NCBI GenBank assembly: GCA_036396895.1
Contig: DASWKB010000024.1
Location: 2,115-66,114, forward strand
DNA: 64,000 bases
Direction of reading: 5' to 3'
Source of the DNA: a bacterium
Lineage (GTDB): Bacteria; Omnitrophota; Gorgyraeia; Aquiviventales; Aquiviventaceae
Under the pieces are notes generated by a model, which saw nothing but the letters and a program-made list of their open reading frames with translations, made no database searches and was not told where the DNA came from. Shown here in pieces: positions 1-24,024 of this stretch. Each line of letters starts with the position of its first letter. Position 1 is the first letter of the stretch. Made by a program: the position numbers and the translations under genes.

Positions 1-60
1 AATACCGAGTGAAAGTCGTCAAACACTATCGTGCGTGAGCACAACTCGAGCGTTGGCGAG

Positions 61-81
61 AGGCTGGAAGCTGGAATGATC
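61..81. repeat. hepta-2 tandem array (GCTGGAN orientation) with GATC-side cap
   Basis: Read directly: aggctgga-agctgga-atgatc. Confidence 0.6.
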
Positions 82-92
82 GGTGGCGACGA

Positions 93-128
93 TGCCAAAT
101 TCGGAATTCGGAATTGGGAATGCGGAAT
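93..128. repeat. hepta-1 tandem array (CGGAATN) with TGCCAAAT cap
   Basis: tgccaaat-tcggaat-tcggaat-tgggaat-gcggaat; identical 36-mer recurs at 6427-6462. Confidence 0.85.
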
Positions 129-130
129 GG

Positions 131-220
131 GTTATGTGCTGTCACGGGAACGCAGGTTTGTGCCGCAAAGGAAGATGACGCCTGTGCCTGTGTGGAGAGC
201 CTCCATTGTTGACGATTCAC
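131..220 (-). repeat. IGR-core element, alpha subfamily
   Basis: Reverse complement of the copy at 4435-4530. Ends in ccattgttgacgattca, the complement of the TGAATCGTCAACAA signature. Confidence 0.8.
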
Positions 221-234
221 AATTCACGGGAGGC

Positions 235-265
235 GAGAAGCTGAAAGCTGGAGGCTGGAACGATC
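235..265. repeat. hepta-2 tandem array
   Basis: gagaagctg-aaagctg-gaggctg-gaacgatc. Confidence 0.7.
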
Positions 266-330
266 ACGTGCCGCACGAACGATCAAGCGTGCATCTGTGC
301 ATAAGTGCAGGGCTATTGTTATTGACGACC
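262..330 (-). repeat. IGR-core element, beta subfamily (diverged)
   Basis: gatcacgtgccgcacgaacgatcaagcgtgcatctgtgcataagtgcag...ttgttattgacgacc aligns by eye to the reverse complement of the beta copies at 2721, 4322 and 7021. Confidence 0.7.
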
Positions 331-370
331 GTCATGCTCCGGCATCCTGCCCGTGTTCAGTCTCTTCAAT

Positions 371-424
371 AATCCGCAATCGGAAATCCGCAATCCGCAA
401 TTCACGATCCAGCCTCCAGCTTCC
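371..424. repeat. hepta-6 array (AATCCGC) followed by hepta-2 units
   Basis: aatccgc-aatcgga-aatccgc-aatccgc-aattcac-gat-ccagcct-ccagctt. The same composite recurs at 6813-6866. Confidence 0.8.
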
Positions 425-471
425 CGGTCGCCATCAACGGGCCAGGTATATCGGAAATTGGCTGGAAGGGC

Positions 472-1476
472 TCAGACAGGCAGCGCCACGCCGCGGAGGA
501 TCTGCGCGGCGTACTCGGGCGGAGTCGGGTTGATGTAGAATCCCGTGCCCCATTCGAAGCCGGCGACCCGCGTCAGCGCGGGGATGATCTCCAGGTGCCA
601 GTGATAGGTCTCGGGGTCCCTCAGCTGAAACGGCGCGGTGTGAATGACGAAGTTGTAGGGCGCGTTCTTGAGCGCTTCCCGCAGCCGCCCGAGAACCTCG
701 CGGACGATCCGGGCGAAGTCCGTCACCGTCTCCTGCGTCGCCAGCGCGAACTCCGGAAGATGCTCCTTCGGCAGCACCCACATCTCGAACGGGAACCGCG
801 ACACGTAGGGGCACACGGCCAGGAACGCCCGGTTCTCGCACACGACGCGCTCATCCTCGAGCAGCTCCTGCGAGGCGATGTCGCAGAAGACGCAGCGCTC
901 CCGCGCCTCGAAATACCGCTCGGCGCCCCGCAGCTCTTCCTCCACCCGCTTCGGCACGATCGGCAGCGCGATCAGCTGGGAATAGCTGTGCGTCAGCGTG
1001 GCGCCAGCCACCAGCCCCGAGTTTTTGAACACGAGGCCGTACTTGAGCCTCGCGTCCGCGCGGAGCGCCTGGGTGCGCAGCTGGTACGACGTGATCACCT
1101 GCCTGAGCTCCTCCTGGCTGAGGTCCGCGAGCTGACGCTGGTGATCCGGAGTTTCCACGATGATCTCATGGACGCCGACGCCCGAGGATTGGTCGAACAC
1201 GCCGAGGCCGCGCCGGGTCAGCATGCCGGACGCGTCCAGCGCCGGAAACTTATTCGGCACGACGCGCAGCCGCCAGCCGGGGCCGTCGACGGCGCCCACC
1301 GCCGGGCGGAGCGCGTACACCTCGGGCGGGGTCATCGCCTCGTTCCCGGGGCAGAACGGACACGTCCCGCCGGCGGGCGTGTCCGTCTCCACCTCGAACA
1401 CCTCGGGGCCGGAGGGCTCCAGCGTCTCGATGATCGTCCATCGTCCGGTGATGGGATCGCGCCTCAGCTCGGACAT
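472..1476 (-). CDS. GalT-like HIT-superfamily nucleotidyltransferase (galactose-1-phosphate uridylyltransferase family), paralog 1
   Basis: 334-aa ORF with CPFCPGNE zinc knuckle, VVPNKFPAL, FKNSGLVAGA, and C-terminal YHWHLEIIP and GFEWGTGFYINP. The expected His-x-His nucleophile site reads THSYSQ. Confidence 0.8.
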   Translation of the reverse strand: MSELRRDPITGRWTIIETLEPSGPEVFEVETDTPAGGTCPFCPGNEAMTPPEVYALRPAVGAVDGPGWRLRVVPNKFPALDASGMLTRRGLGVFDQSSGVGVHEIIVETPDHQRQLADLSQEELRQVITSYQLRTQALRADARLKYGLVFKNSGLVAGATLTHSYSQLIALPIVPKRVEEELRGAERYFEARERCVFCDIASQELLEDERVVCENRAFLAVCPYVSRFPFEMWVLPKEHLPEFALATQETVTDFARIVREVLGRLREALKNAPYNFVIHTAPFQLRDPETYHWHLEIIPALTRVAGFEWGTGFYINPTPPEYAAQILRGVALPV

Positions 1477-1477
1477 G

Positions 1478-2551
1478 TCAGCGCCGCTCCACGGCCTGCG
1501 ACGCCGGCGCCGGCGGCGCCCCGGCCGCCGCTTCGCGGAGATAACGCGCGGCTTCCTCCGGCGGCGTCGGGTTGATGTAGAACCCCGTGCCCCATTCGAA
1601 CCCCGCCACCCTCGTGAGGCGCGGAATGAGCTCCAGGTGCCAGTGAAAGTCGTCTTCCAGCGTCTTCCAGTGACCGAGTCTTCCCCGCCCGCTGCGAAAC
1701 GGCGCCGTATGCAGCAGGTAGTTGTACGGAGGGTCCTCCAGCACGGTCTTCAGCCGCGACAGGACCTCTTTGAGCGCCACCGGCAGCTCCCGGATCTCCT
1801 CCTGGCGCATGCGCGCGAAGTCCGGACTATGGCGCTTCGGCAGAATGCACAGCTCGAACGGAAACCGCGAGGCGAACGGCGCCAGCGCGATGATGTGGGG
1901 GGACTCGAACACGACCCGCACGCCCGATTCGCGCTCCTGCTGGATGACATCGCACATCAGGCAGCGCTCCTTGTCCTCGTAATAGCGGCGGCTGCACAGG
2001 AGCTCTTCCTTCACGACCTTGGGCGTGACGGGCGTGGCGATAAGCTGGGAGCGCGTGTGATCGATCCGGCCCGCGCCGGCCACCCCGCCGTGATTCTTGA
2101 ACCACAGCACGTAGCGGAAGCGCGGGTCCCGCTCCAGATCCACGATCCGGTTTACGGTCGTCTGTACCACCAGCTGGAGCTGCTCGGCCGACAAGTCCGC
2201 GGCATTGCTGACGTGTTTGGGGCTCTCGATGATCATCTCGTGCGCGCCGATGCCGTCCATCACGTCGTAGATCCCCTTCGCCCGCCGGTTCAGCCGGCCC
2301 TCGATGCGCAGCACGGGATTCACGCTCGGGATCACGCGAACGGTCCAGCCGGGCTTATCGGCGCCCGGGCGGGCGCGCACGGCGAGGATCTCCCGCCGCG
2401 TGTCCGCCTCGTGTCCCTCGCAGAAGGGGCACTCGGCCGGATCCGCATGCGCATCGTGCGGAGGGAGGAAGTCCTCGGGCCCTTTCGCGCGCTCGGTGGC
2501 GATGATGACCCACCGCCGCGTCAGGGGGTCTTTCCGAAGCTCAGGCATCAC
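1478..2551 (-). CDS. GalT-like HIT-superfamily nucleotidyltransferase, paralog 2
   Basis: 357-aa ORF ending 1 nt before the paralog 1 start. Has CPFCEGHE, VIPSVNPVL, FKNHGGVAGA, FHWHLELIP and GFEWGTGFYINP. The nucleophile site reads DHTRSQ. Confidence 0.8.
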   Translation of the reverse strand: MMPELRKDPLTRRWVIIATERAKGPEDFLPPHDAHADPAECPFCEGHEADTRREILAVRARPGADKPGWTVRVIPSVNPVLRIEGRLNRRAKGIYDVMDGIGAHEMIIESPKHVSNAADLSAEQLQLVVQTTVNRIVDLERDPRFRYVLWFKNHGGVAGAGRIDHTRSQLIATPVTPKVVKEELLCSRRYYEDKERCLMCDVIQQERESGVRVVFESPHIIALAPFASRFPFELCILPKRHSPDFARMRQEEIRELPVALKEVLSRLKTVLEDPPYNYLLHTAPFRSGRGRLGHWKTLEDDFHWHLELIPRLTRVAGFEWGTGFYINPTPPEEAARYLREAAAGAPPAPASQAVERR

Positions 2552-2564
2552 GCCAGTCCATTGG

Positions 2565-2601
2565 TGCCAATTTCGGAGTTCGGAATTGGAAATGCGGAAT
2601 T
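2565..2601. repeat. hepta-1 tandem array with TGCCAAT cap
   Basis: tgccaattt-cggagtt-cggaatt-ggaaatg-cggaatt. Confidence 0.8.
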
Positions 2602-2602
2602 G

Positions 2603-2690
2603 GTCTTGTGCTCTCTCGGGAACGCAGGTTTGTGCCGCAACGGAAGATGACGCTTGCGCATGTGTGCAGAGCTTCCGAGGTTGACGCTAG
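2603..2690 (-). repeat. IGR-core element, alpha subfamily (diverged at the signature end)
   Basis: gtcttgtgctctctcgggaacgcaggtttgtgccgcaacggaagatgacgc... is collinear with 131-220. Confidence 0.75.
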
Positions 2691-2720
2691 AGAACCGGTC
2701 GGATGCTGGAGCATGGAATG

Positions 2721-2799
2721 TGAATCGTCAACAACGAAGGCTCTGCACTCATGCACAGATGCACGCGTGCTCGTTCGTGCGGCACTCGACCATTCCAGC
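2721..2799 (+). repeat. IGR-core element, beta subfamily
   Basis: tgaatcgtcaacaacgaaggctctgcactcatgcacagatgcacgcgtgctcgttcgtgcggcac...cattccagc. It is convergent with the alpha copy at 2603-2690. Confidence 0.85.
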
Positions 2800-2816
2800 G
2801 ACCAGCCTCCAGCTTC
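2795..2816. repeat. hepta-2 tandem array
   Basis: ccagcga-ccagcct-ccagctt. Confidence 0.75.
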
Positions 2817-2827
2817 TACCCGATTCG

Positions 2828-3763
2828 TCACGACGCCGGTGGCGTTTCGAAGCGGTCGCCCGCGGCGATGCCGCGGCCCGCGACGAACGCCGCCGCCGGC
2901 ATCCGCCGGCGGCCACCGGGCTGAACCTCGAGAACCTGAAGCTCCCCCTGGCCCGTCGCGACCGCGATCCCATCGGAGGACGCGCGGACCACCGTGCCGG
3001 GCGCCGCCCCGCTTCGCGCATCAGGACACGCGCTCGCCGCGAAGATTCTGAGCGGCTCGCCTCCGCGCCACGCGGTCGCCACAGGCCACGGCACGAACGC
3101 CCGCACCTGCCGCTCCAGCTCGCGGGCCGGGAGCCTCCAGTCCAGGGTCCCCTGCGCCTTCGTCAGCTTGGGCGCGAACGTCGCTTCCTCGTCCCGCTGC
3201 GGCGTTTCCTTCGCCGTGCCGGCTGAGAGCTGATGCAGCGCTTCGATGAGCGCCTCCGCCCCCAGCGTCGAGAGCCGCGCGCTTAGGCCTTCGGATGTCT
3301 CCTCCGGCGCGATCGGCATGATCCGCCGGATGAGCACCGGCCCGGCATCCAGCGCTTCGACGAGCCGGTAAATGCAGACCCCCGTTTCCGGCTCGCCGTT
3401 CAGAATCGCCCACGGCACCGGCGCCGCCCCGCGGTACTTGGGCAGCAGCGACGGGTGAACGCCGAGCAGGCCGAACCGCACTGCCTCGAGCAAGTCGCGC
3501 CGCAACAGCTGTCCGTACGCGACCACCACGCCCACATCCGCCTCAAGCGGCGCGATCGCGTCGGCGCGCGGACGCTCCGGCTGCTGCACGATGAGACCCA
3601 GGCGCTCCGCCGCGGCTTTGACCGGCGACGGCGCCGGCTTGAGCCCCCGGCCCTGCGGCCGGTCCGGCCGCGACACGCACGCGACGACGCGGTGGTCCGA
3701 ATGGGCCAGCCGTTCGAGCACCGGGACGGCATACGCTGACGTGCCGAAATACACGACGCGCAT
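2828..3763 (-). CDS. fmt: methionyl-tRNA formyltransferase
   Basis: MRVVYFGTSAYAVPVLERL N-terminus, HPSLLPKYRGAAP motif and an Fmt C-terminal domain. The ATG at 3763 overlaps the def stop (TGATG). The track ORF extends to 3808. Confidence 0.9.
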   Translation of the reverse strand: MRVVYFGTSAYAVPVLERLAHSDHRVVACVSRPDRPQGRGLKPAPSPVKAAAERLGLIVQQPERPRADAIAPLEADVGVVVAYGQLLRRDLLEAVRFGLLGVHPSLLPKYRGAAPVPWAILNGEPETGVCIYRLVEALDAGPVLIRRIMPIAPEETSEGLSARLSTLGAEALIEALHQLSAGTAKETPQRDEEATFAPKLTKAQGTLDWRLPARELERQVRAFVPWPVATAWRGGEPLRIFAASACPDARSGAAPGTVVRASSDGIAVATGQGELQVLEVQPGGRRRMPAAAFVAGRGIAAGDRFETPPAS

Positions 3764-4251
3764 CAGCGCACGCGGCGCCGGAGCCTGAGCCGCAGGCGTG
3801 CCGGCCACGAGAGCCGGTCGACGAACAGCCGCCCGTCAAGGTGATCGCACTCGTGCTGGAGGATGATCGCCAGCAGGCCCTCGGCCTCGATCCTGAACGG
3901 ATTGCCGTTCCGGTCCTGGGCCGCGACGCGCACCCACGCCGAGCGCTTCACCTTCGCCCACGCACCCGGAAGGCTCAGGCACCCCTCCGTCAGCGCCGCG
4001 CGGCCGTGTTGGGCCTCGATCACCGGATTGGCCAAGAGGAGCTCCTCGCCACGCCGCTGCGTATGGCCGACGACGCAGAGCCTGAGCGATTCGCCGACCT
4101 GCGGCGCCGCCAGCCCCACGCCGTCGTTGGCGTGCATCGTCTCGATCATCTCCGCCGCCAACCGGCGCAGGGCCTCCGCGAACTCCGTTACCGGCTCCGC
4201 GCGCCGGCGCAGGGCCGGCGCCGGCGCGAAGGTCAACACGCGCGCGCCCAT
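3763..4251 (-). CDS. def: peptide deformylase
   Basis: The three deformylase motifs are all present: GVGLAAPQVG, EGCLSLPG, QHECDHLDG. Classic def-fmt gene order. Confidence 0.92.
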   Translation of the reverse strand: MGARVLTFAPAPALRRRAEPVTEFAEALRRLAAEMIETMHANDGVGLAAPQVGESLRLCVVGHTQRRGEELLLANPVIEAQHGRAALTEGCLSLPGAWAKVKRSAWVRVAAQDRNGNPFRIEAEGLLAIILQHECDHLDGRLFVDRLSWPARLRLRLRRRVR

Positions 4252-4262
4252 ATCTTATGCGT

Positions 4263-4290
4263 ATTCTATCGTCGCCATCCCAAAAAGCAA
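4263..4290 (-). promoter_or_regulatory. sigma70-like promoter candidate upstream of def-fmt
   Basis: On the minus strand: TTGCTT, a 16-nt spacer, TAGAAT, then 12 nt to the def ATG. Lies in a locally AT-richer stretch. By-eye match only. Confidence 0.35.
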
Positions 4291-4321
4291 GTGATGCACG
4301 TCATCCGAGCAACCGGCAAGT

Positions 4322-4400
4322 TGAATCGTCAACACCGAAGGCTCTGCACCCGTGCACAGATGCACGCGTGATCGTTCGTGCGGCACGTGATCATTCCAGC
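4322..4400 (+). repeat. IGR-core element, beta subfamily
   Basis: tgaatcgtcaacaccgaaggctctgcacccgtgcacagatgcacgcgtgatcgttcgtgcggcacgtgatcattccagc. Confidence 0.85.
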
Positions 4401-4423
4401 TTCTCGCGTCCAGCTTCTCGCCT
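4396..4423. repeat. 14-nt direct repeat x2 (hepta-2-derived linker)
   Basis: ccagcttctcgcgt-ccagcttctcgcct. The same linker is seen at 6994-7011 and 7108-7124. Confidence 0.8.
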
Positions 4424-4434
4424 CCCGTGAATTA

Positions 4435-4530
4435 TGAATCGTCAACAACGGAGGCTCTCCACACAGGCACAGGCGTCATCTTCCTTTGCGGCACAAACCT
4501 GCGTTCCCGTGAGAGCACATAACCCATTCC
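4435..4530 (+). repeat. IGR-core element, alpha subfamily
   Basis: tgaatcgtcaacaacggaggctctccacacaggcacaggcgtcatcttcctttgcggcacaaacctgcgttcccgtgagagcacataacccattcc. Confidence 0.85.
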
Positions 4531-4548
4531 GAATTCCGAAGTTGGCAT
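4526..4548. repeat. hepta-1 array (ATTCCGN orientation) with cap
   Basis: attccga-attccga-agttggcat. Confidence 0.7.
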
Positions 4549-4567
4549 CTATCCAATCTCGCACTTC

Positions 4568-5752
4568 TCACAGGAAACACGCCACCACCATGGCCACGAC
4601 CGCGAGGACGCCGCCCGCCGTGTACGGCGCCTGCCCCAGCATCCCCGCGGAGCGAAGGGCATCGGCGTGCAGCAGCCACCCGCCGAGCACGGGGCCCGCG
4701 ATCCGCGCCAGACTCGCGGCCGACTGCATGACGCCCAGCACCCGCCCCTGAGACTGAGAGCCGGCGCTCCGGGACGCGAGCCCGTTCAGCGGGGCCAGGA
4801 TCAGGCTGTGCCCGACGGCGATCCCCGTCGTCACCGACAGCAGGCACGCCAACGTCACGCTGGATGGCAACAGGAACAGGCTTGCGGCGAGGAGCGCCGT
4901 GCCGGCGATGATCAGCTTCTTATCGCCGAACATTCTCACCAGCCAGCCGAGCATGCCGCCCTGGATGACGGCGCCGATGAGTCCCTGCCCCGCGAAAATG
5001 TATCCGTTCTGGGCCGCCGAGAGTCCGAACCGCCGCTCGGTGAACAGCGCGTAGGTCGCCGTGAGAAGCGAAAACGCCGCGGTCGAGAAGAAATACGCCA
5101 GGAGAATCACGCCGAACGGCCGCCGGCGCAGCGACCGGAACGACTCGCCGAACGAGGAGCGTTCCCGTGCATGGCCGCGCTGCTCGGGCGGCAGGCTCTC
5201 CGGCAGCAGCCAAAAGATCGCCACGGCCGTGACCGCGGCCAGGAACGCCGCGAACAGAAACGGTGCCGCAAGCGACACGTGGCTCAGCAGTCCGCCGATG
5301 GCCGGGCCGAAGATGAATCCCAGCCCGAACGCCGCGCCGATCAGGCCCATCCCGCGCGAACGCTGCTCCGGCGGCGTGATATCGGCGATGTAGGCCTGCG
5401 CCGTCGAGATATTGCCGCCCGTGGCGCCGTCGATGATGCGTGCGACGAACAGGAGCGGCAGCGTGTGCGCGACGCCCATGAGGAGAAATCCGGCCGCCGT
5501 GCCGATCACGCTGAGCAGGAGGACCGGCCGCCTGCCCACGCGGTCCGACAGCCGGCCGAGAAGCGGGGCGCAGACGAACTGCATGGCGGAGTAGACCGCC
5601 AGCAGCAGCCCGACGACGAACGGCGACGCGTCGAACTGCTCCGCGTAGATGGGCAGGACGGGGATCACGATCCCGAAGCCGACCAGATCGAGAAACACGA
5701 TCCCGAAGATCAGGAAGTACGGCGACCGCCGGCTGGAACGGGCGTGATCCAT
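4568..5752 (-). CDS. MFS transporter (drug/H+ antiporter-like)
   Basis: 394 aa, hydrophobic throughout with about 12 spans by eye, and an MFS motif-A-like GRLSDRVGRRPVLL. Confidence 0.85.
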   Translation of the reverse strand: MDHARSSRRSPYFLIFGIVFLDLVGFGIVIPVLPIYAEQFDASPFVVGLLLAVYSAMQFVCAPLLGRLSDRVGRRPVLLLSVIGTAAGFLLMGVAHTLPLLFVARIIDGATGGNISTAQAYIADITPPEQRSRGMGLIGAAFGLGFIFGPAIGGLLSHVSLAAPFLFAAFLAAVTAVAIFWLLPESLPPEQRGHARERSSFGESFRSLRRRPFGVILLAYFFSTAAFSLLTATYALFTERRFGLSAAQNGYIFAGQGLIGAVIQGGMLGWLVRMFGDKKLIIAGTALLAASLFLLPSSVTLACLLSVTTGIAVGHSLILAPLNGLASRSAGSQSQGRVLGVMQSAASLARIAGPVLGGWLLHADALRSAGMLGQAPYTAGGVLAVVAMVVACFL

Positions 5753-5759
5753 GCGGACG

Positions 5760-6077
5760 CTAGCGCCGGAGCAACTCGGCCAGGACCGATCCGAGCGCGG
5801 CGGCGCTGAAGAGCACCATCAGCGCGTCGGGCATGACGCGGCGTTTGGCTTTCCAGGTGCCGAGAAACCTCACGGCCAGCGCCAGCGCGATCAGGAGACT
5901 CAGGACGGACCCTGCCGTGCGGCCTTCCAGTATCCAGGAGGCGCAGAGCAGCAGGATCCCGCCCAATCCGACGCCCGCGATCAGGGAGGGGACGCTGCGC
6001 GCTTTGACATATCCGATGATGCCGCCCAGGATGGTGAATGTCCCGTAGGCGGCGACGATTGTTGCCGTGTATGACAT
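5760..6077 (-). CDS. TMEM14/UPF0136-family small membrane protein
   Basis: MSYTATIVAAYGTFTILGGIIGYVKARSVPSLIAG matches the family pattern GGxxGYxKxxSxxSLxAG. ATG at 6077. The track ORF starts at a GTG at 6104. Confidence 0.7.
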   Translation of the reverse strand: MSYTATIVAAYGTFTILGGIIGYVKARSVPSLIAGVGLGGILLLCASWILEGRTAGSVLSLLIALALAVRFLGTWKAKRRVMPDALMVLFSAAALGSVLAELLRR

Positions 6078-6142
6078 CCTGCTATTGTCGGGCAAGCTCA
6101 CCACTCACGCCAGCATAAAATCCGGGCCGGAGGCCAACGGCC

Positions 6143-6177
6143 GCGTAACGTGAAACGCGTAACGCGTAACGTGATCG
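6143..6177. repeat. hepta-3 tandem array
   Basis: gcgtaac-gtgaaac-gcgtaac-gcgtaac-gtgatcg. Confidence 0.8.
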
Positions 6178-6180
6178 CGT

Positions 6181-6285
6181 GTCTTGTGCCGTGACGGACG
6201 ATGAGGATTGTACAGTGACGACAGATGACGCCTGTGCATTTGTGCAACGCCTTGTTTGTTGGTGCCCGAACTGAATGAGTCATAA
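6181..6285 (-). repeat. IGR-core element, degenerate copy
   Basis: gtcttgtgccgtgacgg...agatgacgcctgtgcatttgtgcaacgccttgtttgttgg...ctgaatgagtca keeps blocks of the alpha core. Confidence 0.5.
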
Positions 6286-6340
6286 GTGAGAGGCTTGAAG
6301 GTAGCGCCTGGAATGCGGGGGCGGATCATGCTTGGAACAT

Positions 6341-6368
6341 GGGACGGGGGACAGGGGACGTGGACGGA
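6341..6368. repeat. hepta-4 tandem array
   Basis: gggacgg-gggacag-gggacgt-ggacgga. Confidence 0.8.
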
Positions 6369-6384
6369 ATCAGAGATCCGTGGC

Positions 6385-6415
6385 GAGAAGCTGGAGGCTG
6401 GAAGCTGGAATGATC
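6385..6415. repeat. hepta-2 tandem array
   Basis: gagaagctg-gaggctg-gaagctg-gaatgatc. Confidence 0.8.
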
Positions 6416-6426
6416 AGCCGCGACGA

Positions 6427-6462
6427 TGCCAAATTCGGAATTCGGAATTGGGAATGCGGAAT
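6427..6462. repeat. hepta-1 tandem array with TGCCAAAT cap
   Basis: Identical to 93-128. Confidence 0.85.
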
Positions 6463-6464
6463 TG

Positions 6465-6549
6465 GTCTTGTGCTGTCACGGGAACGCAGGCTTGTGCCGT
6501 CATAGAAAGTCACGAGTGTGCATAAGCGAAACGTCTTCGTTGTTGACGG
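6465..6549 (-). repeat. IGR-core element, alpha-like
   Basis: gtcttgtgctgtcacgggaacgcaggcttgtgccgtcatagaaagtcacgagtgtgcataagcgaaacgtcttcgttgttgacgg. Confidence 0.75.
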
Positions 6550-6583
6550 GTCGGGAACCGGTCGGAAGCTGGAGCGTGAAATC

Positions 6584-6696
6584 GAATCGTCAACAACGGA
6601 GGCTCTGCACACATGCACAATCGTCATCGTGCATCGCGGCACACACCTGCTCTCCCGGTACGGCACAAGACCCATTCCGCATTCCGCACCATGCTC
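6584..6696 (+). repeat. IGR-core element, gamma subfamily
   Basis: 113 nt identical by hand comparison to 7135-7247. Starts gaatcgtcaacaacggaggctctgcacacatgcacaatcgtcatcgtgcatcgcggcac. Confidence 0.9.
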
Positions 6697-6812
6697 GCGC
6701 GTGACACGTTACGCGGCATGTCATGCTCATCACGCTCCAGTTCCGTATGCCTCCCCTGTCCCAAGCGTGGCTCGCCTATGACTCCGATCCTCCCGGTCTG
6801 CTCAAGTCTTTC

Positions 6813-6866
6813 AATCCGCAATCCGAAATCCGCAACCCGCAATTCACACGGAGCCTCCAGCTTCAG
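6813..6866. repeat. hepta-6 array followed by hepta-2 units
   Basis: aatccgc-aatccga-aatccgc-aacccgc-aattcac...gagcctccagcttcag. Paralogous to 371-424. Confidence 0.8.
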
Positions 6867-6896
6867 TCCTGCAACACGACACAACCCCTGACGCCG

Positions 6897-6960
6897 CCGT
6901 GACGCGTTTCGCGTTACGCGGGCCCGCAAGTCGGGGGTCCCCTCGGGGGCTGTCCCCCTT
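6897..6960. repeat. hepta-3 units followed by G5/C5-rich hepta-4-like palindromic stretch
   Basis: ccgtgacgcgtttcgcgttacgcgg...tcgggggtcccctcgggggctgtccccc. Confidence 0.6.
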
Positions 6961-6971
6961 GGACCAGACTA

Positions 6972-7011
6972 CTTCCAGCCTCCAGCCTCTAGCGTCCAGC
7001 TTCTCGCCTCC
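6972..7011. repeat. hepta-2 tandem array plus conserved linker
   Basis: cttccagcctccagcctctagcgtccagcttctcgcctcc. Confidence 0.8.
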
Positions 7012-7020
7012 CGTGATGTT

Positions 7021-7100
7021 TGAATCGTCAACAACGAAGGCGCTGCACTCATGCACAGATGCACGCGTGATCGTTCGTGCGGCACGTGATCATTCCAGCC
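7021..7100 (+). repeat. IGR-core element, beta subfamily
   Basis: tgaatcgtcaacaacgaaggcgctgcactcatgcacagatgcacgcgtgatcgttcgtgcggcacgtgatcattccagcc. Confidence 0.85.
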
Positions 7101-7124
7101 TCCAGCGTCCAGCTTCTCGCCTCC
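7091..7124. repeat. hepta-2 tandem array plus conserved linker
   Basis: cattccagcctccagcgtccagcttctcgcctcc. Confidence 0.8.
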
Positions 7125-7134
7125 CGTGATGTTT

Positions 7135-7247
7135 GAATCGTCAACAACGGAGGCTCTGCACACATGCACAATCGTCATCGTGCATCGCGGCACACACCTG
7201 CTCTCCCGGTACGGCACAAGACCCATTCCGCATTCCGCACCATGCTC
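7135..7247 (+). repeat. IGR-core element, gamma subfamily
   Basis: 113 nt identical to 6584-6696. Confidence 0.9.
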
Positions 7248-7281
7248 TCACGTTACACGTTCCACGTTTCACGTGACACGC
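7247..7281. repeat. hepta-3 tandem array directly downstream of the priA stop
   Basis: ctcacgtta-cacgttc-cacgttt-cacgtga-cacgc. Confidence 0.8.
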
Positions 7282-7282
7282 A

Positions 7283-9319
7283 TTATGAAGGATCAACATC
7301 CACCGCGACAGGAAGCCCCGCGAACCGGCGCCCCGGCTGCAAGGTGTGCCGGATGAGCTCCACGATGGGCTCGACGCTCTTGTGCTTGAGGAGCACACAC
7401 ATCCGGTACGTGCGGCGCATCTTCGGGATGCGGTGCGGGGCCGGACCGATGATCTCGATCTTCGAACCCGCCGCGCGCTTCCGGAGCGCGTCCGCCAGGT
7501 CAGCGGCGGTCTGCTCCGCGCGGTCCTGCTTCCCGGCGCGGACGGTCAGCTCCGCCAGATGGCAGAACGGCGGGAGGCGAAGGCGCCGGCGCATCTTGAG
7601 TTCCTCGCGGTAAAAGCCCACGTAATCGTGCTTGGCCGCCGCGGTGATGGCGTAATGGTCCGGATGGAATGTCTGCACGAGCACCCGGCCCGGTTGCGCT
7701 CCGCGGCCGGCCCGCCCGGCCACCTGCGCCAGGAGATCGAAGGTGCGCTCCCCCGCCCTGAAATCCGGCAGATTGAGCGCGGTGTCGGCCGAAATGACGC
7801 CGACCAGCGTGACCTCGGGGAAGTGCCAGCCCTTCGCGATCATCTGCGTGCCGACCAGGACCCCGATCTTGCCCGACTTCATCCCTTCGTAGAACTCCTC
7901 GTGGCTGGTCCGGGCCTTCGTGGTGTCGGTGTCCATGCGCGCGATCGACGCGCCCGGGAACACCCGGTGCAGTTCCGACTCGACGCGCTCGGTGCCGGTA
8001 CCCCGGAATCTGACGGCGCCCTTCTTGCAGTGCGCGCACACCTCGGGCGGCGGCTCGCGGTGGTTGCAGTAATGACAGACCATCCCGCCCTCGGCGGCGT
8101 GGTAGATGAGCGGGACCGAGCAGCGGGGACACAGCGCAGAGGCTCCGCACTGCAGGCACTGCGCGATCCGGGCGAACCCTCGGCGGTTAAGCAGGAGCAG
8201 CGCCTGCTCGCCTCGCCCCGTCACCTGCTCGAGCGCCAGCTGGAGCCTGAGCGAGAGCGGAGCGCTTCGCCTGCCGCGGCCGGCCTCGCGCATGTCGACG
8301 ATGGAGACCTTCGGCATCGCGCGCCCCTCGACCCGCTCCGGAAGCTCAAGCAGCATGCCCCCCCGCCGGCGCGCGGCGTAGGCGCTTTCCATCGAAGGGG
8401 TCGCGCTGCCGAGGATGACGAGCGCGCCGGTCACGCGCGCCCGGGCGAGGGCCACGTCGCGGGCGTGATAGCGCGGAGCGTCCTCCTGTTTGTAGGTCTG
8501 CTCGTGCTCCTCATCCAGCACGATGACCCCGAGCCGGCGGATCGGGGTGAAGACGGCGGAACGGGCGCCGATCACGATCCGGGAACGCCCGCAGCTCATG
8601 GCCTGCCAGGCGGCCGACCGCTGGCGCGCAGTCATGCGGCTGTGCCAGACGGCGACCGTGTCGCCGAAACAGCCCCGGAACCGCTCGATCGTCTGGGGCG
8701 TGAGCGCGATTTCCGGTATCAGGCAGATCGCTCCCTGCCCCCGCCTGAGCGCCCGGTCGATCACGCGAAGGTACAGCTCCGTTTTTCCCGATCCGGTCAC
8801 GCCGTGGAGCAGCGCCGCGCGCGCGCGCCCGGCCTCGAGCGCCGCGAAGAGACGTCCGAGCGCCAGGTCCTGGTGGGATGTCAGCACGTGGGTGAAGGGC
8901 GCGACGGCGCCCCGGACCGGCTCATCCGGCGCGTCAGGCTCCGCCGGACCGACGCGAAGCGCCGCCGGGACCATGACGCCGAAGGCTTCGCCGAGACTGC
9001 ACCCGTAGTAGCCCGAGAGCCACTCGGCCAGCCGCCAGCGGTCCTCCGACACGACGGGCTGCGGATCGAGGACGCGCCGGATGGCCTTCAGGCCGGGAAA
9101 CGGAGCAACCCCGCTGCGCCGGAGGATGAAGCCCTGGCGTTCCCTGCGGCCGAACGGGGCGGCCACGCGCGTGCCCGGCACGGCGGCCTGCTGCAATGCC
9201 CCTGGCACGGCATAGTGGAACGGGTGCTCGATCGGCAGGCTGAACACGACTTCGGCGTACGGGAGCGCGGCGTCCGCCGTGGCGTCATCAATGCGCACTC
9301 GCCTTGGAGCAGAACTCAT
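7283..9319 (-). CDS. priA: primosomal protein N' (replication restart helicase PriA)
   Basis: GVTGSGKTELYL Walker A, LDEEHE, and paired CxxC zinc motifs (CLQCG, CPRC, CHYC, CAHC). ATG at 9319. The track ORF starts at a TTG at 9346 inside the hepta-1 cap. Confidence 0.9.
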   Translation of the reverse strand: MSSAPRRVRIDDATADAALPYAEVVFSLPIEHPFHYAVPGALQQAAVPGTRVAAPFGRRERQGFILRRSGVAPFPGLKAIRRVLDPQPVVSEDRWRLAEWLSGYYGCSLGEAFGVMVPAALRVGPAEPDAPDEPVRGAVAPFTHVLTSHQDLALGRLFAALEAGRARAALLHGVTGSGKTELYLRVIDRALRRGQGAICLIPEIALTPQTIERFRGCFGDTVAVWHSRMTARQRSAAWQAMSCGRSRIVIGARSAVFTPIRRLGVIVLDEEHEQTYKQEDAPRYHARDVALARARVTGALVILGSATPSMESAYAARRRGGMLLELPERVEGRAMPKVSIVDMREAGRGRRSAPLSLRLQLALEQVTGRGEQALLLLNRRGFARIAQCLQCGASALCPRCSVPLIYHAAEGGMVCHYCNHREPPPEVCAHCKKGAVRFRGTGTERVESELHRVFPGASIARMDTDTTKARTSHEEFYEGMKSGKIGVLVGTQMIAKGWHFPEVTLVGVISADTALNLPDFRAGERTFDLLAQVAGRAGRGAQPGRVLVQTFHPDHYAITAAAKHDYVGFYREELKMRRRLRLPPFCHLAELTVRAGKQDRAEQTAADLADALRKRAAGSKIEIIGPAPHRIPKMRRTYRMCVLLKHKSVEPIVELIRHTLQPGRRFAGLPVAVDVDPS

Positions 9320-9340
9320 CCGCCGCCCACCAGCACATGA

Positions 9341-9428
9341 TGCCAAATGCGGAATTCGGAATCGGGAATTCGGAATCGCGCGTTCGGGCCTTCATTCCGC
9401 ATTCCGAATTCCGCATTCCGAATTTGGC
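9341..9428. repeat. inverted hepta-1 arrays forming a long imperfect hairpin
   Basis: Left arm tgccaaatgcggaattcggaatcgggaattcggaat, loop of about 17 nt, right arm attccgcattccgaattccgcattccgaatttggc. Mismatches fall at the variable heptad position. Confidence 0.85.
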
Positions 9429-9481
9429 TTCACTCCCCACTCTCCTCGAGACGCTCCACACTTGGCATAGCGTCGCGTGAC

Positions 9482-9509
9482 GTGCCCCCTGCCCCCCGCC
9501 CCTTGCCCC
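9482..9509. repeat. hepta-4 tandem array (NNGCCCC orientation)
   Basis: gtgcccc-ctgcccc-ccgcccc-ttgcccc. Confidence 0.85.
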
Positions 9510-9557
9510 AGACCTGACGGATAGACGAATGAGACGAATTGGGTGACATCGGGAGTG

Positions 9558-10241
9558 TCAACGCGTTCGGGTCTTCGTCGGCGGTTCCCGCCCGAGCACC
9601 TTGAGAACGACCTGCAGATCCTCCCACGCCTGCGGCTTGGCGGCCGGATTGCGCAGGAGATAGGCGGGATGGTACGTCGGCACAAGCGGCACGCCTTCAT
9701 ACTCCTTGACCGAGCCGCGGACCCGGCTGATGGCGATGTGCGGCCCGAAGAGCGCCTTCACCGCCACCGCCCCCAGCGTGCAAATGACCTTCGGCCGGAT
9801 GATCTCGATCTGCTCCAGCAGGTACGGCAGGCACGCGTCGACTTCGGACGGCTCCGGCGTGCGGTTGTTCGGCGGACGGTCTTTCAGGATGTTGCAGATG
9901 TAGACCTGCTCGCGATGCAGTCCCATGGCTTCGATCATCTTCGTCAGCAGCTTGCCCGCGGCCCCGACGAACGGTTTGCCCTGCAGGTCCTCGTCCCTCC
10001 CGGGAGCTTCCCCGATGAACATCAGCTCCGCATCCTGGCTGCCATCGCTGACGACCGCGTGCGTGCGGGTCCTGTACAGGGGGCACTTCCGGCACTGCTC
10101 GACCGCCCGCGCCAGCGCCGCAAGCCGCTCGCTTCGACCTCCGCGATCACCTCCGCGCGGCAGTGCCTCCAGCCCCATCAGCTTCAATCCCTCGGCGTGG
10201 AGCCGCGCCGCCTTCGCGAGTGCTCGTCGCTCGTCATTCAT
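9558..10241 (-). CDS. family-4 uracil-DNA glycosylase
   Basis: [39 protein letters not shown]. Start placed at MNDERR (10241). The longer track ORF (to 10394) translates heptad repeats at its N-terminus. Confidence 0.85.
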
Positions 10242-10346
10242 GGGTTCACCCTGCGATTGGGGCAACGGGCGGGAGGCACGGGACATGAACCGTAAGTCCA
10301 TTGATCGTGGACCGTGTAACGTGTCCTGTAGGAACACATGCACATA

Positions 10347-10381
10347 GGTTCCAGGTTCCAGCTTCCACCTTCCAGCATCCG
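10347..10381. repeat. hepta-2-like tandem array
   Basis: ggttcca-ggttcca-gcttcca-ccttcca-gcatccg. Confidence 0.8.
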
Positions 10382-10391
10382 ACCGAAACCC

Positions 10392-10423
10392 CACGTTACA
10401 CGATACACGTTACACGTTACGCG
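10392..10423. repeat. hepta-3 tandem array spanning the stop codon of the 10410 gene
   Basis: cacgtta-cacgata-cacgtta-cacgtta-cgcg. Confidence 0.85.
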
Positions 10424-11576
10424 GCGTGAGAAGCGGTTCGACGACCTGCTCGATGATATCGTTCGCCGCGTTCGGCCGGCCGGCGTCGCGCGCGCCCGTT
10501 CTGAGCTTCGCCATGAGCTCGGGCGAAGAGGCGCAGTGCCGCACGAACTCCGCGGCCGCCTCCGGGCCCAGCGCGATCACTCCCGCCCCCTGCCGCGCGA
10601 CGTACCGCGCATTCGATTCCTCCTGCCCAGGAATCGCGTGATAGAAGACCAGGGGCAGCTCGCACGCCAGCGCCTCGGCCACCGTCAGGCCACCCGCCTT
10701 GGCCACGGCCAGATCCGCCGTTCCCATCAAGTCCAGCATATTGTGCACGAATCCGAAGACCCTCGCGGGCATCGGCGCCGCCGCAGCCGCCGCCTCAAGG
10801 CGCGCCGTCGTGCGGGCGTCATCCCCGCAGACGACGATGAGCTGCAGCCGCCCTGGCACCATGGCCTCGAGTCTCAACAGCCGCTCGACGAGGTCTGCGA
10901 ACCGGCCGACGGTGGTGCCGCCGCTCGTGACCAGCACGGTCAGCCGGTCGTGCGCAAGACCGAGCGATTCCCTGAGCGCCCGCCGGCGCGTCTCGGTGAG
11001 CGGCGCCGCGGCGACCGTCGGAATCCCAAGCGCCGCCACGCGCTCGCGCGGCACGCCGAGCTCCACGCAACGGTCCGCCCCCGCCTGATTCGCCACGACC
11101 ACCGCGTCCGGACGGGCGCCGAGCCACAGCCGGTGCGGATGCCAGTCGGTGACGACGACCACGACCGGCGCCCGCAGCCGCCCCGCGGTCCGCGCAGCCC
11201 CCAAGAGGTCGGCCGGGAAAAAGTGCGTCAGGACCGCCACGTCCGGCTGCTCCGCGAGCAGGACGGCCGGCATGCGGTATCCGATCAGCCGGTTCCAGGC
11301 GCGCCGGAACGGCTGGATGCACCGGAACACCGCCGCCTGATCCAGCGCGCGATACGAAAACTTCCAGCACATCGGCAGCGCGCGCACCAGGAACAAGTAC
11401 AGGCGGGCGTACCCGCTCCGATACCAGCCCGGAGTCCATGCCAGGGCGTCCAGACAGCGAACGTCGGCGTCCGGCCAGCGCCGCCGCGCCGCGTCCGCCA
11501 GCGCTTCAGCCGCCCGGCGATGTCCGGCCCCGGCCGTCGCGTACGCAATCAGAATCCGAGGTCTTGATGAATCCAT
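10410..11576 (-). CDS. GT28-type glycosyltransferase (MGDG synthase / UgtP-like diacylglycerol glycosyltransferase)
   Basis: 388 aa. N-terminal ILIAYATAGAGHRRAAEAL and C-terminal AVAKAGGLTVAEALACELPLVFYHAIPGQEESNA are typical of the MGDG_synth plus Glyco_tran_28_C architecture. Confidence 0.8.
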   Translation of the reverse strand: MDSSRPRILIAYATAGAGHRRAAEALADAARRRWPDADVRCLDALAWTPGWYRSGYARLYLFLVRALPMCWKFSYRALDQAAVFRCIQPFRRAWNRLIGYRMPAVLLAEQPDVAVLTHFFPADLLGAARTAGRLRAPVVVVVTDWHPHRLWLGARPDAVVVANQAGADRCVELGVPRERVAALGIPTVAAAPLTETRRRALRESLGLAHDRLTVLVTSGGTTVGRFADLVERLLRLEAMVPGRLQLIVVCGDDARTTARLEAAAAAAPMPARVFGFVHNMLDLMGTADLAVAKAGGLTVAEALACELPLVFYHAIPGQEESNARYVARQGAGVIALGPEAAAEFVRHCASSPELMAKLRTGARDAGRPNAANDIIEQVVEPLLTPRNV

Positions 11577-11585
11577 CCGCCATCG

Positions 11586-11664
11586 GGAAGCTTGAAGCTA
11601 GAAGCTCGATGATGGAACGAGCGATCCGATCATTCCAGCTTCAAGCTTCCAGCCTCCAGCTTCC
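11586..11664. repeat. inverted hepta-2 arrays with a perfect 14-bp stem
   Basis: ggaagcttgaagct (11586-11599) is the exact reverse complement of agcttcaagcttcc (11637-11650). Further CCAGCNT units run to 11664. Confidence 0.8.
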
Positions 11665-11673
11665 GCCCAGAGG

Positions 11674-20692: not shown

Positions 20693-20825
20693 AACGTCTT
20701 TCGCAGTCCCTGAATCATCCTGACCAGCACCTCGGCATGCTCGTAGTGCTGCCGAAATTCCTGCTTTTCAAACTTGAATCCCATTATCCCTCGTCGCGTG
20801 CTCAAGCACCAACTTCGCGTGTCAG

Positions 20826-20866
20826 GCTGTGGTCTGTGGACAGTGGACTGTGGACTGCGTGTGGAC
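20826..20866. repeat. hepta-5 tandem array, inverted orientation (TGTGGAC)
   Basis: gctgtggtc-tgtggac-agtggac-tgtggac-tgcgtgtggac. Abuts the stop of the 20866 gene. Confidence 0.8.
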
Positions 20867-21987: not shown

Positions 21988-22066
21988 TCGGCTCCTTCTA
22001 TCGCCCGCTATCCTGTCTCTCCAGGATGTGGCATCACACCGCCGCATCCTCCCGCCACGTCGATCG

Positions 22067-22150
22067 TGCCAAATGCGGAATCCGGAATTGGGAATTCGGA
22101 ATTATTGCGGACCGTGGAGATTCCGCATTCCGCATTCCGCATTCCGAATT
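22067..22150. repeat. inverted hepta-1 arrays forming a hairpin
   Basis: tgccaaatgcggaatccggaattgggaattcggaatt, loop of about 16 nt, attccgcattccgcattccgcattccgaatt. Confidence 0.85.
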
Positions 22151-23870: not shown

Positions 23871-23889
23871 ACGTGCTCATTGCCGCTCG

Positions 23890-23979: not shown

Positions 23980-24003
23980 AGGTTCATGCTCGGCTCACGT
24001 CAC

Positions 24004-24024
24004 GCGCCCCTCGCCCCGTGCCCC
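24004..24024. repeat. hepta-4 tandem array (NNGCCCC orientation)
   Basis: gcgcccc-tcgcccc-gtgcccc, immediately downstream of the DegT-family stop. Confidence 0.75.

What the first reader, a model, noticed from the sequence alone, without database searches (positions are those of the whole stretch)
131..7247. About 12 copies of an 80-115 nt intergenic core element in three subfamilies, confined to the left 7.3 kb
All copies share the end signature TGAATCGTCAACAACGRAGGCTCTSCAC and an internal GCGGCAC. Alpha copies are at 131-220(-), 2603-2690(-), 4435-4530(+) and 6465-6549(-). Beta copies are at 262-330(-), 2721-2799(+), 4322-4400(+) and 7021-7100(+). Gamma copies are at 6584-6696(+) and 7135-7247(+). 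Degenerate copies are at 6181-6285 and possibly 8-50. Alpha and gamma align without indels over about 80 nt by hand. Each core is flanked by specific heptad arrays: hepta-1 at the ATTCCG end, hepta-2 plus a CTTCTCGCCTCCCGTGA linker at the signature end. None of the intergenic gaps inside the glycan supercluster carries a core; they have heptads only. The modular mosaic resembles E. coli BIME/REP organisation or a MITE/sRNA family, but I do not recognise the sequence.
Basis: seen in the sequence. Interest (0 to 1): 0.7.

Follow-up and report, generated by a model that had tools for sequence, protein, structure and literature searches.

The report
Mosaic intergenic repeat modules, uncultured bacterium
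Eleven copies of a 70-95-base non-coding sequence, set among 7-base repeat arrays, have swollen four gene spacers in an uncultured bacterium; this is a new family of the known "interspersed intergenic repeat" kind, not an RNA gene or promoter.

Summary
Profile searches find 11 copies, 7 long (~95 nt) and 4 short (~72 nt), all in window 126-7228. None occur in the other 57 kb or in 9.5 kb further left. The "8-50" copy is not supported; that stretch is the gap promoter.

The family is not a one-locus duplication. Two more head-to-head pairs lie in two other spacers on another contig of the same MAG.

The cores are non-coding, match nothing in Rfam, and fold no better than shuffled sequence. They lie in either orientation relative to transcription.

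The nearest syntenic relative has the same gene order with spacers of 0-116 nt and has neither cores nor heptad arrays. The cores are therefore lineage-specific additions.

Copies move as 150-335-nt composite blocks of heptad arm plus core(s). These blocks are mosaics, and nearby copies are the most alike. I found no transposase, terminal inverted repeats or target duplications.

Best reading: DNA-level passenger modules of a heptad-hairpin repeat system, shuffled by recombination or gene conversion. The organisation is BIME/REP-dimer-like, but the cores are not REP or MITE members. Interest is moderate.

The parts
126..219 (-). long core a1 (alpha)
   Evidence: nhmmer E 6e-28; 98% identical to a3
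262..332 (-). short core b1 (beta, most diverged beta)
   Evidence: nhmmer E 1e-23; 56-60/72 identical to the other betas
2598..2691 (-). long core a2 (alpha), head-to-head with b2
   Evidence: nhmmer E 3e-26
2692..2719 (.). conserved 28-nt spacer between head-to-head cores a2/b2
   Evidence: 89% identical to 6555-6582 (family D16)
2721..2792 (+). short core b2 (beta)
   Evidence: nhmmer E 9e-25
4322..4393 (+). short core b3 (beta)
   Evidence: nhmmer E 4e-25
4414..4430 (+). linker CTTCTCGCCTCCCGTGA, the outer end of a CTGGAAG-type heptad arm
   Evidence: 4 exact copies at 224-240(-), 4414-4430, 7000-7016 and 7113-7129, against 0.4 expected
4435..4528 (+). long core a3 (alpha)
   Evidence: nhmmer E 7e-28
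6177..6269 (-). degenerate long core d1, joined to CGTTACG heptads instead of ATTCCG heptads
   Evidence: nhmmer E 4e-20; 59-66% identical to other copies
6460..6553 (-). long core a4 (diverged alpha), head-to-head with g1
   Evidence: nhmmer E 8e-24
6555..6582 (.). conserved spacer between head-to-head cores a4/g1
   Evidence: family D16
6583..6676 (+). long core g1 (gamma)
   Evidence: nhmmer E 3e-27; identical core to g2
6425..6690 (.). ~260-nt imperfect palindrome: heptad arm + a4 + spacer + g1 + heptad arm
   Evidence: inverted repeat I8, 103-nt arms, 74% complementary; fold -137 kcal/mol, z -10.1
7021..7092 (+). short core b4 (beta)
   Evidence: nhmmer E 5e-26
7134..7227 (+). long core g2 (gamma)
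   Evidence: nhmmer E 2e-27
114..328 (-). composite block m1 = beta + heptads + linker + alpha
   Evidence: 215-nt inverted repeat with 4326-4540, 90% (I1)
4321..4540 (+). composite block m2; direct repeat of m3, lying on the def side of the Tmemb_14-MFS gene pair
   Evidence: 218 nt, 87% identical to 7020-7237 (D3); segment-wise mosaic
7020..7237 (+). composite block m3 (beta + heptads + linker + gamma), on the priA side
93..128 (+). TGCCAAAT + (KCGGAAT)n heptad arm attached to the non-signature end of a1; equivalent arms at 2565-2600, 4526-4547(-) and 6427-6463
   Evidence: the same arm forms core-less hairpins at 9341-9429, 22067-22141 and 23890-23979

Best explanation
The cores are non-coding, DNA-level repeat modules specific to this uncultured lineage. 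They are not independent units. Each is welded by one end to a heptad-array arm. Long cores join a TGCCAAAT-(KCGGAAT)n arm and short cores join a GGCGAGAAG-(CTGGANG)n arm. The same arms, without cores, form hairpin elements in most intergenic regions of this genome.

What gets copied is a composite block of 150-335 nt (arm + core, or arm + core + core + arm), in either orientation and mostly over a few kb.

Proposed mechanism (inferred): the heptad hairpin elements colonise the space between a stop codon and the next promoter. Cores then spread and are reshuffled between such elements. This would happen by homology-driven recombination, gene conversion or template switching that starts in the heptad arrays.

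Shown consequences: intergenic regions expanded from 0-116 nt to 276-1178 nt, one very long hairpin, and long direct or inverted repeats flanking gene blocks.

Shown: family membership, intergenic restriction, absence from the syntenic relative, mosaicism, the distance-similarity relation, lack of coding capacity, and no convincing conserved RNA fold.

Inferred: the copying mechanism and the absence of a host function.
For: - Real family: 11 copies, E down to 1e-28.
- Same genome, other loci. Head-to-head pairs lie at L002 9322-9415(-)/9413-9505(+) and L051 8476-8569(-)/8567-8660(+). Protein accessions HEX9780115-168 (window) and HEX9780923-938 (other contig) fall in one block, and the ENA assembly and JGI sample are the same.
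- All 15 copies are intergenic, in 7 spacers.
- The nearest syntenic relative (Fmt 59% identical) has MGDG synthase-UDG-PriA-Def-Fmt-GalT-GalT-Gap with spacers of 0-116 nt, no heptad arrays and no cores.
- The gap and def promoters are conserved with that relative and lie gene-proximal to the repeats.
- Non-coding: GC is 51-59% with no GC3 excess, against 0.8-0.9 GC3 in genes. There are stops in every frame in some copies, and no hit for the translated composite among 5.8 billion proteins.
- No evidence for a structured RNA: Rfam gives no hits at gathering score or at E<=1. Single-copy fold z-scores are -1.3 to +1.2. The consensus fold is -2.4/-3.5 kcal/mol. Orientation relative to transcription is 6:5.
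- Mosaic: in the three composites the beta half groups m2 with m3 (74/80), and the alpha half groups m1 with m2 (94/97).
- Copied blocks end inside heptad arrays. The two 335-nt blocks differ by exactly one 7-nt unit.
- Near copies are the most alike: g1/g2 100% at 0.55 kb, a1/a3 98% at 4.3 kb, and the L002/L051 blocks about 95% at 5.2 kb. Between contigs identity is 55-77%.
- No transposase, RAYT or integrase among about 58 genes of the window.
Against: - Only about 106 kb of the genome could be sampled, so copy number and any distant transposase are unknown.
- Recombination alone cannot explain the first arrival of repeats in spacers that are 0-23 nt in the relative. Some insertion mechanism is needed and was not identified.
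- Conserved blocks persist in copies that are only 55-70% identical overall (CGTCAAC, TGCAC..TGCACA, CGTCAT, GGCACA, GGCACAAGAC). This could reflect selection for protein binding. Clustering of conserved columns is only marginal (p=0.05).
- Counts on the predicted consensus structures exceed shuffles, so a weak RNA constraint is not excluded. The structures were derived from the same alignment, which makes the test circular.
Confidence: 0.55

Rival explanations
1. Classical non-autonomous transposon (MITE or REPIN-like). The inverted doublet of arm + core is the mobile unit, moved in trans by a transposase encoded elsewhere. Singletons and tandems are decayed or rearranged doublets.
For: - Four head-to-head pairs among 15 copies.
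- The a4/g1 doublet with its arms folds into a 260-nt hairpin, z -10.
- HH pairs have a conserved spacer, as in REP dimers (PMC3733652).
- Repeats were inserted into spacers that are near zero length in the relative.
- An ENA contig ends inside a copy, as expected for multi-copy repeats.
Against: - No target-site duplication at block borders.
- Cores have no terminal inverted repeats.
- The other pairs fold weakly (z -2.1 and -2.65) and tandem composites not at all (z 0 and -1.5).
- No transposase in about 106 kb.
- The mosaic incongruence points to recombination rather than copy-and-paste of one unit.
Confidence: 0.2
2. Cis-acting DNA sites kept by selection. Each core would carry an array of binding sites (four GCACA-type motifs at about 9, 24 and 24-nt spacing, plus the CGTCAACAACG end) for a nucleoid-associated or regulatory protein. 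It would act as an insulator or regulatory module between transcription units.
For: - Short motif blocks are invariant across copies that are otherwise 55-70% identical.
- Function would be orientation-independent.
- The cores sit between a stop codon and the next promoter.
- The signature end reads TTGACGA on the other strand, like the -35 box of the gap promoter.
Against: - The neighbouring genes have no coherent function.
- The cores are absent from the syntenic relative, where the same genes are tightly packed.
- Clustering of conserved columns is marginal (p=0.05).
- No sigma-70-like promoter is predicted in 1-7400.
- Most heptad-bearing spacers have no core.
Confidence: 0.12
3. A family of small regulatory RNAs or other structured RNA elements transcribed from the cores.
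For: Intergenic location. Counts on the RNAalifold structures exceed shuffles: 93.5% and 85.2% of cells paired, 2 and 5 pairs with compensatory changes.
Against: - No Rfam hit even at E<=1.
- Consensus energies are only -2.4 and -3.5 kcal/mol.
- No copy folds better than its shuffles on either strand.
- No promoter-like site in 1-7400, and only one core (b1, 294-311) carries a terminator-like match.
- Both orientations occur relative to transcription.
- The structures tested were derived from the same nine sequences.
Confidence: 0.08
4. Artefact or trivial local duplication: assembly error in repeat-rich DNA, or a single segmental duplication confined to this locus.
For: The sequence comes from a metagenome-assembled genome. 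Contigs break at or near the repeats. Copies cluster locally.
Against: - An ENA contig is 100% identical to window 1-11476.
- JGI and ENA assemblies agree 100% over 7968 nt at the second locus.
- Most copies differ by 7-45%, which is too much for collapse artefacts.
- Copies occur on a second contig in unrelated gene contexts.
Confidence: 0.05

Closest known systems
E. coli BIMEs and REP dimers (HH/TT homo- and heterodimers; Di Nocera et al. 2013, PMC3733652)
   Same: Strictly extragenic and lying between co-directional genes. Mosaic of a few module types in alternating or tandem orientation. Head-to-head heterodimers (alpha/beta, alpha/gamma) have a conserved spacer. Dimers can fold into one large hairpin.
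   Different: The unit is 72-95 nt and not a palindrome, whereas a REP is a 20-40 bp stem-loop with an unpaired GTAG or CGTC tag. A CGTC lies in the signature but not next to a stem. The units are embedded in heptad arrays. No RAYT was seen.
Streptococcus pneumoniae BOX elements and similar modular repeats (from my own knowledge)
   Same: Short non-coding modules combined in variable order and number in intergenic DNA.
   Different: Unrelated sequence. BOX A and C modules pair to form a stem-loop, whereas tandem composites here do not fold better than shuffles.
MITEs, including cyanobacterial MITEs associated with STRR heptamer arrays such as Nezha (from my own knowledge)
   Same: Small, non-coding and multi-copy. 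Associated with heptanucleotide arrays. Inserted in spacers that are empty in a relative.
   Different: No terminal inverted repeats on the core, no target-site duplication, and no related IS found.
Intergenic heptamer arrays: cyanobacterial STRR and TAACTGA direct repeats of Beggiatoaceae, Cyanobacteria and Bacteroidetes (MacGregor 2015, PMC4679880)
   Same: Short arrays (2-9 copies) of 7-nt units confined to intergenic regions. Their mechanism of spread is unknown.
   Different: Here there are at least five unit types in a 67% G+C genome, usually as inverted pairs forming hairpins. The cores themselves are unique sequence, not arrays.

Membership tests
REP (repetitive extragenic palindrome) | Unit is a 20-40 bp imperfect palindrome (stem-loop) | tested here: not met
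   Cores are 72-95 nt. Fold z-scores are -1.3 to +1.2 on both strands. The definition is taken from PMC3733652.
REP (repetitive extragenic palindrome) | Unpaired GTAG or CGTC tag at one end of the stem | tested here: not met
   CGTC is present in the signature (CGTCAACAACG), but no adjacent stem exists.
REP / BIME | Extragenic, often as HH/TT dimers with conserved spacers, in mosaic combinations | tested here: met
   15 of 15 copies are intergenic. There are 4 head-to-head pairs. The 28-nt spacer is 89% conserved between two pairs.
REP / REPIN | Associated RAYT (Y1 transposase) gene flanked by the repeats | not testable with these tools
   None found in the 64-kb window or in the called genes of L001, L049-L052 and L055. 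The rest of the MAG could not be read.
MITE | Terminal inverted repeats | tested here: not met
   The two ends of a core (CGTCAACAACG... and ...GGCACAAGACC) are not complementary. Only whole doublets are inverted repeats.
MITE | Target-site duplications | tested here: inconclusive
   No direct repeat at the borders of the 335-nt duplicated block. The borders lie in heptad arrays, and no empty site from a close relative was available.
MITE | Small size, no coding capacity | tested here: met
Any Rfam RNA family | Covariance-model match | tested here: not met
   0 hits at gathering score for the window, and 0 hits at E<=1 for 1-7400.
sRNA gene | Own promoter and terminator, conserved fold with covariation, strand consistency | tested here: not met
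   No promoter-like site in 1-7400, and only one core (b1, 294-311) overlaps a terminator-like match. Consensus energy is weak. Covariation counts are weak and circular. Orientation is 6:5.
Heptamer arrays (STRR / TAACTGA type) | Tandem 7-nt units in intergenic DNA | tested here: met
   True of the flanks, not of the cores. The cores are therefore associated with this class, not members of it.
oriC / DnaA-box cluster | Enrichment of TTATNCACA, GC-skew switch, gene-orientation switch | tested here: not met
   8 matches against 6.5 expected. GC skew is negative in every 2-kb bin except the last (62-64 kb, +0.03), with no switch near the core cluster. All genes are on one strand.

The most novel reading that the evidence does not exclude
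The cores and the heptad hairpins together are an undescribed self-propagating intergenic repeat system in a candidate-phylum bacterium. An unknown enzyme would seed and extend 7-nt arrays as inverted pairs. Unique 'core' cargo would then be carried between them. The system would actively remodel operons by splitting translationally coupled genes, bracketing a two-gene insertion with direct repeats, and bracketing a 5-kb menaquinone gene block with inverted repeats.
Probability: 0.15. Interest if true: 0.65.

Novelty: new variant of a known kind. Interest (0 to 1): 0.35.

Why it matters
If the reading holds, this lineage is a natural case in which compact operon spacers of 0-116 nt have been inflated to as much as 1.2 kb by layered repeats, while the nearby promoters were preserved. 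Its nearest named relatives are Candidatus Omnitrophica.

It gives a clean comparison with a repeat-free syntenic relative. That comparison could be used to study how intergenic repeat systems invade, how heptad arrays act as recombination substrates, and how such repeats fragment metagenome assemblies. Contigs of this MAG break at or near them.

It does not open a new functional category. No evidence points to a new RNA, defence system or regulatory mechanism.

Tried and rejected
- Rfam: no hits at gathering score or at E<=1.
- Signature scans: no hits in GTDB representative genomes or viral contigs. blastn against plasmids and phages found nothing.
- Spurious-ORF trick: I searched the translated composite module against 5.8 billion proteins to find other copies. 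Nothing scored E<=10.
- Coding hypothesis: one reverse frame is open in 5 of 7 long copies. However, there is no GC3 bias, stops occur in other copies, and there are no homologues.
- oriC / DnaA-box idea: TTATGCACA occurs in b1 and a4, but there is no enrichment and no skew or strand switch.
- Outward promoter idea: TTGACG lies at the signature end, but no -10 box sits at 16-18 nt in any context, and the scan finds 0 promoter-like sites. The similarity to the gap -35 region explains the false '8-50' copy.
- Fmt relatives in GTDB: the best is 45% identical and none of 44 loci carries a core.
- Walking further along the MAG was blocked.
- Test for motif-level constraint by clustering of conserved columns: marginal, p=0.05.

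Full report

Yes. Profiles built from the copies recover 7 long copies (~95 nt) and 4 short copies (~72 nt), with E-values of 1e-20 to 1e-28. All lie between 126 and 7228. Nothing else in the window scores below E=1. Alpha and gamma align without gaps, and the repeat finder independently returns the same families.

The proposed copy at 8-50 is not detected. Read on the gene strand, that stretch is the gap promoter, TTGACG-N17-TACAAT, followed by a strong ribosome-binding site. "All copies share the signature" is an overstatement, because only 7 of 11 do within 3 mismatches.

**2. Source and neighbourhood**

The window's proteins are NCBI "MAG TPA ... [bacterium]" HEX9780115-168, on a 66-kb contig. 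An ENA contig (L001) is 100% identical to window 1-11476 and extends 9.5 kb further left. It has no further cores.

Nearly all of the roughly 58 genes I called are on the minus strand. GC skew is negative in every 2-kb bin except the last. Positions 9.5-62 kb hold a glycan-biosynthesis cluster with no transposase.

The closest Fmt homologues are 59% identical. Somewhat more distant homologues (53-54%) are named Candidatus Omnitrophica. GTDB representative genomes reach only 45%.

**3. Dispersed or local?**

The signature is absent from GTDB representatives. It hits one JGI metagenome contig, L002. That contig carries a head-to-head pair of long cores between an HhH-GPD glycosylase gene and a ferredoxin-reductase-like gene.

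Its proteins are HEX9780934-938, and it occurs in the same ENA assembly and JGI sample as the window. It is therefore the same MAG.

About 5.2 kb away, a second pair lies in another spacer (L051 8476-8660). The whole 335-nt block (heptads + pair + heptads) is about 95% identical to the first and inverted. The two differ by exactly one 7-nt unit. The ENA contig ends inside this repeat. A further 10 kb of that contig has heptad hairpins but no cores.

In total, 15 copies lie in 7 intergenic regions within about 106 kb sampled.

**4. What the cores are not**

- *Not coding.* GC is 51-59% with no third-position excess, against 0.8-0.9 in genes. Stops occur in every frame in some copies, and a translated composite finds nothing among 5.8 billion proteins.
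- *No evidence for a known or structured RNA.* Rfam gives no hits even at E<=1. Consensus folds are -2.4 and -3.5 kcal/mol. No copy folds better than its shuffles on either strand. Pair counts on the predicted structures exceed shuffles, but the structures came from the same nine sequences.
- *Not promoters.* The scan finds 0 promoter-like sites in 1-7400. Only one core (b1, 294-311) overlaps a terminator-like match, and the other copies lack it.
- *Not strand-specific.* Relative to the uniformly minus-strand transcription, six copies lie one way and five the other. This argues against any strand-specific RNA role.
- *Not an origin.* DnaA-box-like motifs are not enriched, and there is no skew or strand switch.

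**5. Anatomy**

Most intergenic regions of this genome contain inverted pairs of heptad arrays that fold as hairpins. There are at least five unit types. An example is 9338-9432, with z -4.1.

Long cores are always joined by their non-signature end to a heptad arm. This is usually TGCCAAAT-(KCGGAAT)n, and in d1 and L2b a CGTTACG/ACGTGTC-type array. Short cores are joined to a (CTGGANG)n arm. It also occurs in spacers without cores.

Two arrangements occur:
- Tandem composites [beta-heptads-linker-alpha/gamma] at 114-328(-), 4321-4540(+) and 7020-7237(+).
- Head-to-head pairs a2/b2 and a4/g1, which share an 89% identical 28-nt spacer, plus the two pairs on the other contig.

Only a4/g1 with its arms makes a strong hairpin (-137 kcal/mol, z -10.1). 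The other pairs fold weakly (z -2.65 and -2.1). Tandem composites do not fold better than shuffles (z 0 and -1.5). Hairpin formation is therefore not a conserved property of the cores.

**6. Comparative evidence**

A relative with the same gene order was found (L047/L048, 67% G+C). It has MGDG synthase-UDG-PriA-Def-Fmt-GalT-GalT-Gap with spacers of 0-116 nt, no heptad arrays and no cores.

In the window the corresponding spacers are 211, 1178 + 316, about 0, 276, 1 and 527 nt. The def and gap promoters are recognisably conserved and sit between the repeats and the start codons. The repeats therefore fill the space from a stop codon to the next promoter.

The relative lacks the Tmemb_14 and MFS genes. 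In the window, composite block m2 lies on the def side of this pair and m3 on the priA side (direct repeats, 87% over 218 nt).

**7. How they spread**

This section is inference. The copied units are composite blocks whose borders lie in heptad arrays.

The three composites are mosaics. The beta half groups m2 with m3 (74/80 identical), with m1 the outlier. The alpha half groups m1 with m2 (94/97), with m3 the outlier.

Similarity falls with distance. g1/g2 are 100% identical at 0.55 kb, a1/a3 98% at 4.3 kb, and the two 335-nt blocks about 95% at 5.2 kb. Between contigs identity is 55-77%.

There are no target-site duplications or terminal inverted repeats on cores, and no transposase in the sampled DNA.

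I therefore favour recombination, gene conversion or template switching seeded in the heptad arrays as the process that copies and reshuffles cores. The first colonisation of a spacer by heptad hairpins still needs an unidentified insertion mechanism. A trans-acting transposase (MITE/REPIN model) remains the main rival. Selection for protein binding at the conserved GCACA-type motifs is possible but only weakly indicated (p=0.05).

**8. Comparison with known systems**

In organisation the nearest analogues are BIMEs and REP dimers: extragenic, with head-to-head heterodimers and conserved spacers (PMC3733652). Modular BOX-type repeats are also similar.

Membership fails on the defining features. 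The unit is not a 20-40 bp palindrome with a GTAG/CGTC tag, and no RAYT was seen. MITE membership fails on terminal inverted repeats and is unresolved for target-site duplications.

The flanking arrays belong with intergenic heptamer arrays known from cyanobacteria and Beggiatoaceae (PMC4679880). They differ in composition and in their inverted-pair arrangement.

**9. Verdict**

This is a genuine, previously uncatalogued intergenic repeat family. It is best described as a new variant of bacterial interspersed mosaic repeats. Interest is moderate (0.35). The family is real and architecturally unusual, and it sits in a poorly known lineage. However, nothing indicates a new kind of function, and the mechanism cannot be settled from about 106 kb of one MAG.

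Noticed in passing
window 9338-9432, 11577-11673, 20620-20870, 22040-22170, 23860-24030, 25203-25370, 41023-41186, 62967-63300; also L001 13365-13580, L050 8630-8712, L055 535-977, 6660-7002 and 8128-8413: Most intergenic regions sampled from this genome carry inverted pairs of 7-nt tandem arrays that fold as hairpins. There are at least five unit types (CGGAATG, CTGGAAG, GTCCACA, CGTAACG, GGGGCAN). The syntenic relative L047 has none. This genome-wide heptad-hairpin system is more unusual than the cores themselves.
   Followed up: partly
window 4568-6104 with repeats at 4321-4538 and 7020-7237: The Tmemb_14 + MFS transporter gene pair is absent between PriA and Def in the syntenic relative. 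Here, composite block m2 lies on its def side and m3 on the priA side (218-nt direct repeats, 87% identical). This suggests insertion or rearrangement through the repeats.
   Followed up: partly
L002 ~9290-9650 and L051 ~8440-8800 (same MAG, another contig): Two 335-nt repeat blocks, about 95% identical and inverted, lie 5.2 kb apart. They flank a gene block that includes menaquinone (futalosine-type) biosynthesis genes, a second peptide deformylase and radical-SAM genes. The segment could be invertible.
   Followed up: no
window 335-432 and 6772-6872; L055 800-905: A further repeat module occurs in three intergenic regions: a conserved leader TCAAGTCTTTCAAT, then (CCGCAAT)x4, then TCAC.
   Followed up: partly
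window 1-60 (minus strand); L001 11440-11535: The gap promoter is TTGACG-N17-TACAAT, with a GAGGAGG ribosome-binding site. Its -35 region (TGTTTGACGACTTTCAC) resembles the core signature read on the other strand (GTTGTTGACGATTCAC). Whether it is coincidence or common origin is unknown.
   Followed up: partly
window 1-64000: Nearly all of the roughly 58 genes called are on the minus strand, and GC skew is negative in every 2-kb bin except the last. This is an unusually long co-directional stretch.
   Followed up: no
window 9558-62712: A roughly 50-kb glycan-biosynthesis supercluster. It has many GT2/GT4/GT9 glycosyltransferases, more than 10 SAM methyltransferases, three asparagine-synthase-like genes, NeuB, a CMP-sugar cytidylyltransferase, a sugar N-formyltransferase, a Wzy-type ligase and an ABC exporter.
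   Followed up: partly
window 62712-62966 (-): An 84-aa ORF matches only the LexA DNA-binding domain, with no peptidase domain. Its stop overlaps the start of the next sugar epimerase gene at the head of the glycan cluster.
   Followed up: no
window 6931-6960: A G+C-rich double palindrome (GGGGGTCCCC / GGGGGCTGTCCCCC) lies inside the 1178-nt spacer, next to a 59-aa ORF (6723-6902, +). That ORF was called as a gene in one assembly but has no Pfam match.
   Followed up: no
L050 end (11071-11147); window start: Assemblies break at or near the repeats. The ENA contig ends inside a core. The NCBI MAG places the DNA left of the window on a different contig (proteins HEX9781020-21 against HEX9780115 onward). 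Copy numbers estimated from MAG contigs will therefore be too low.
   Followed up: partly
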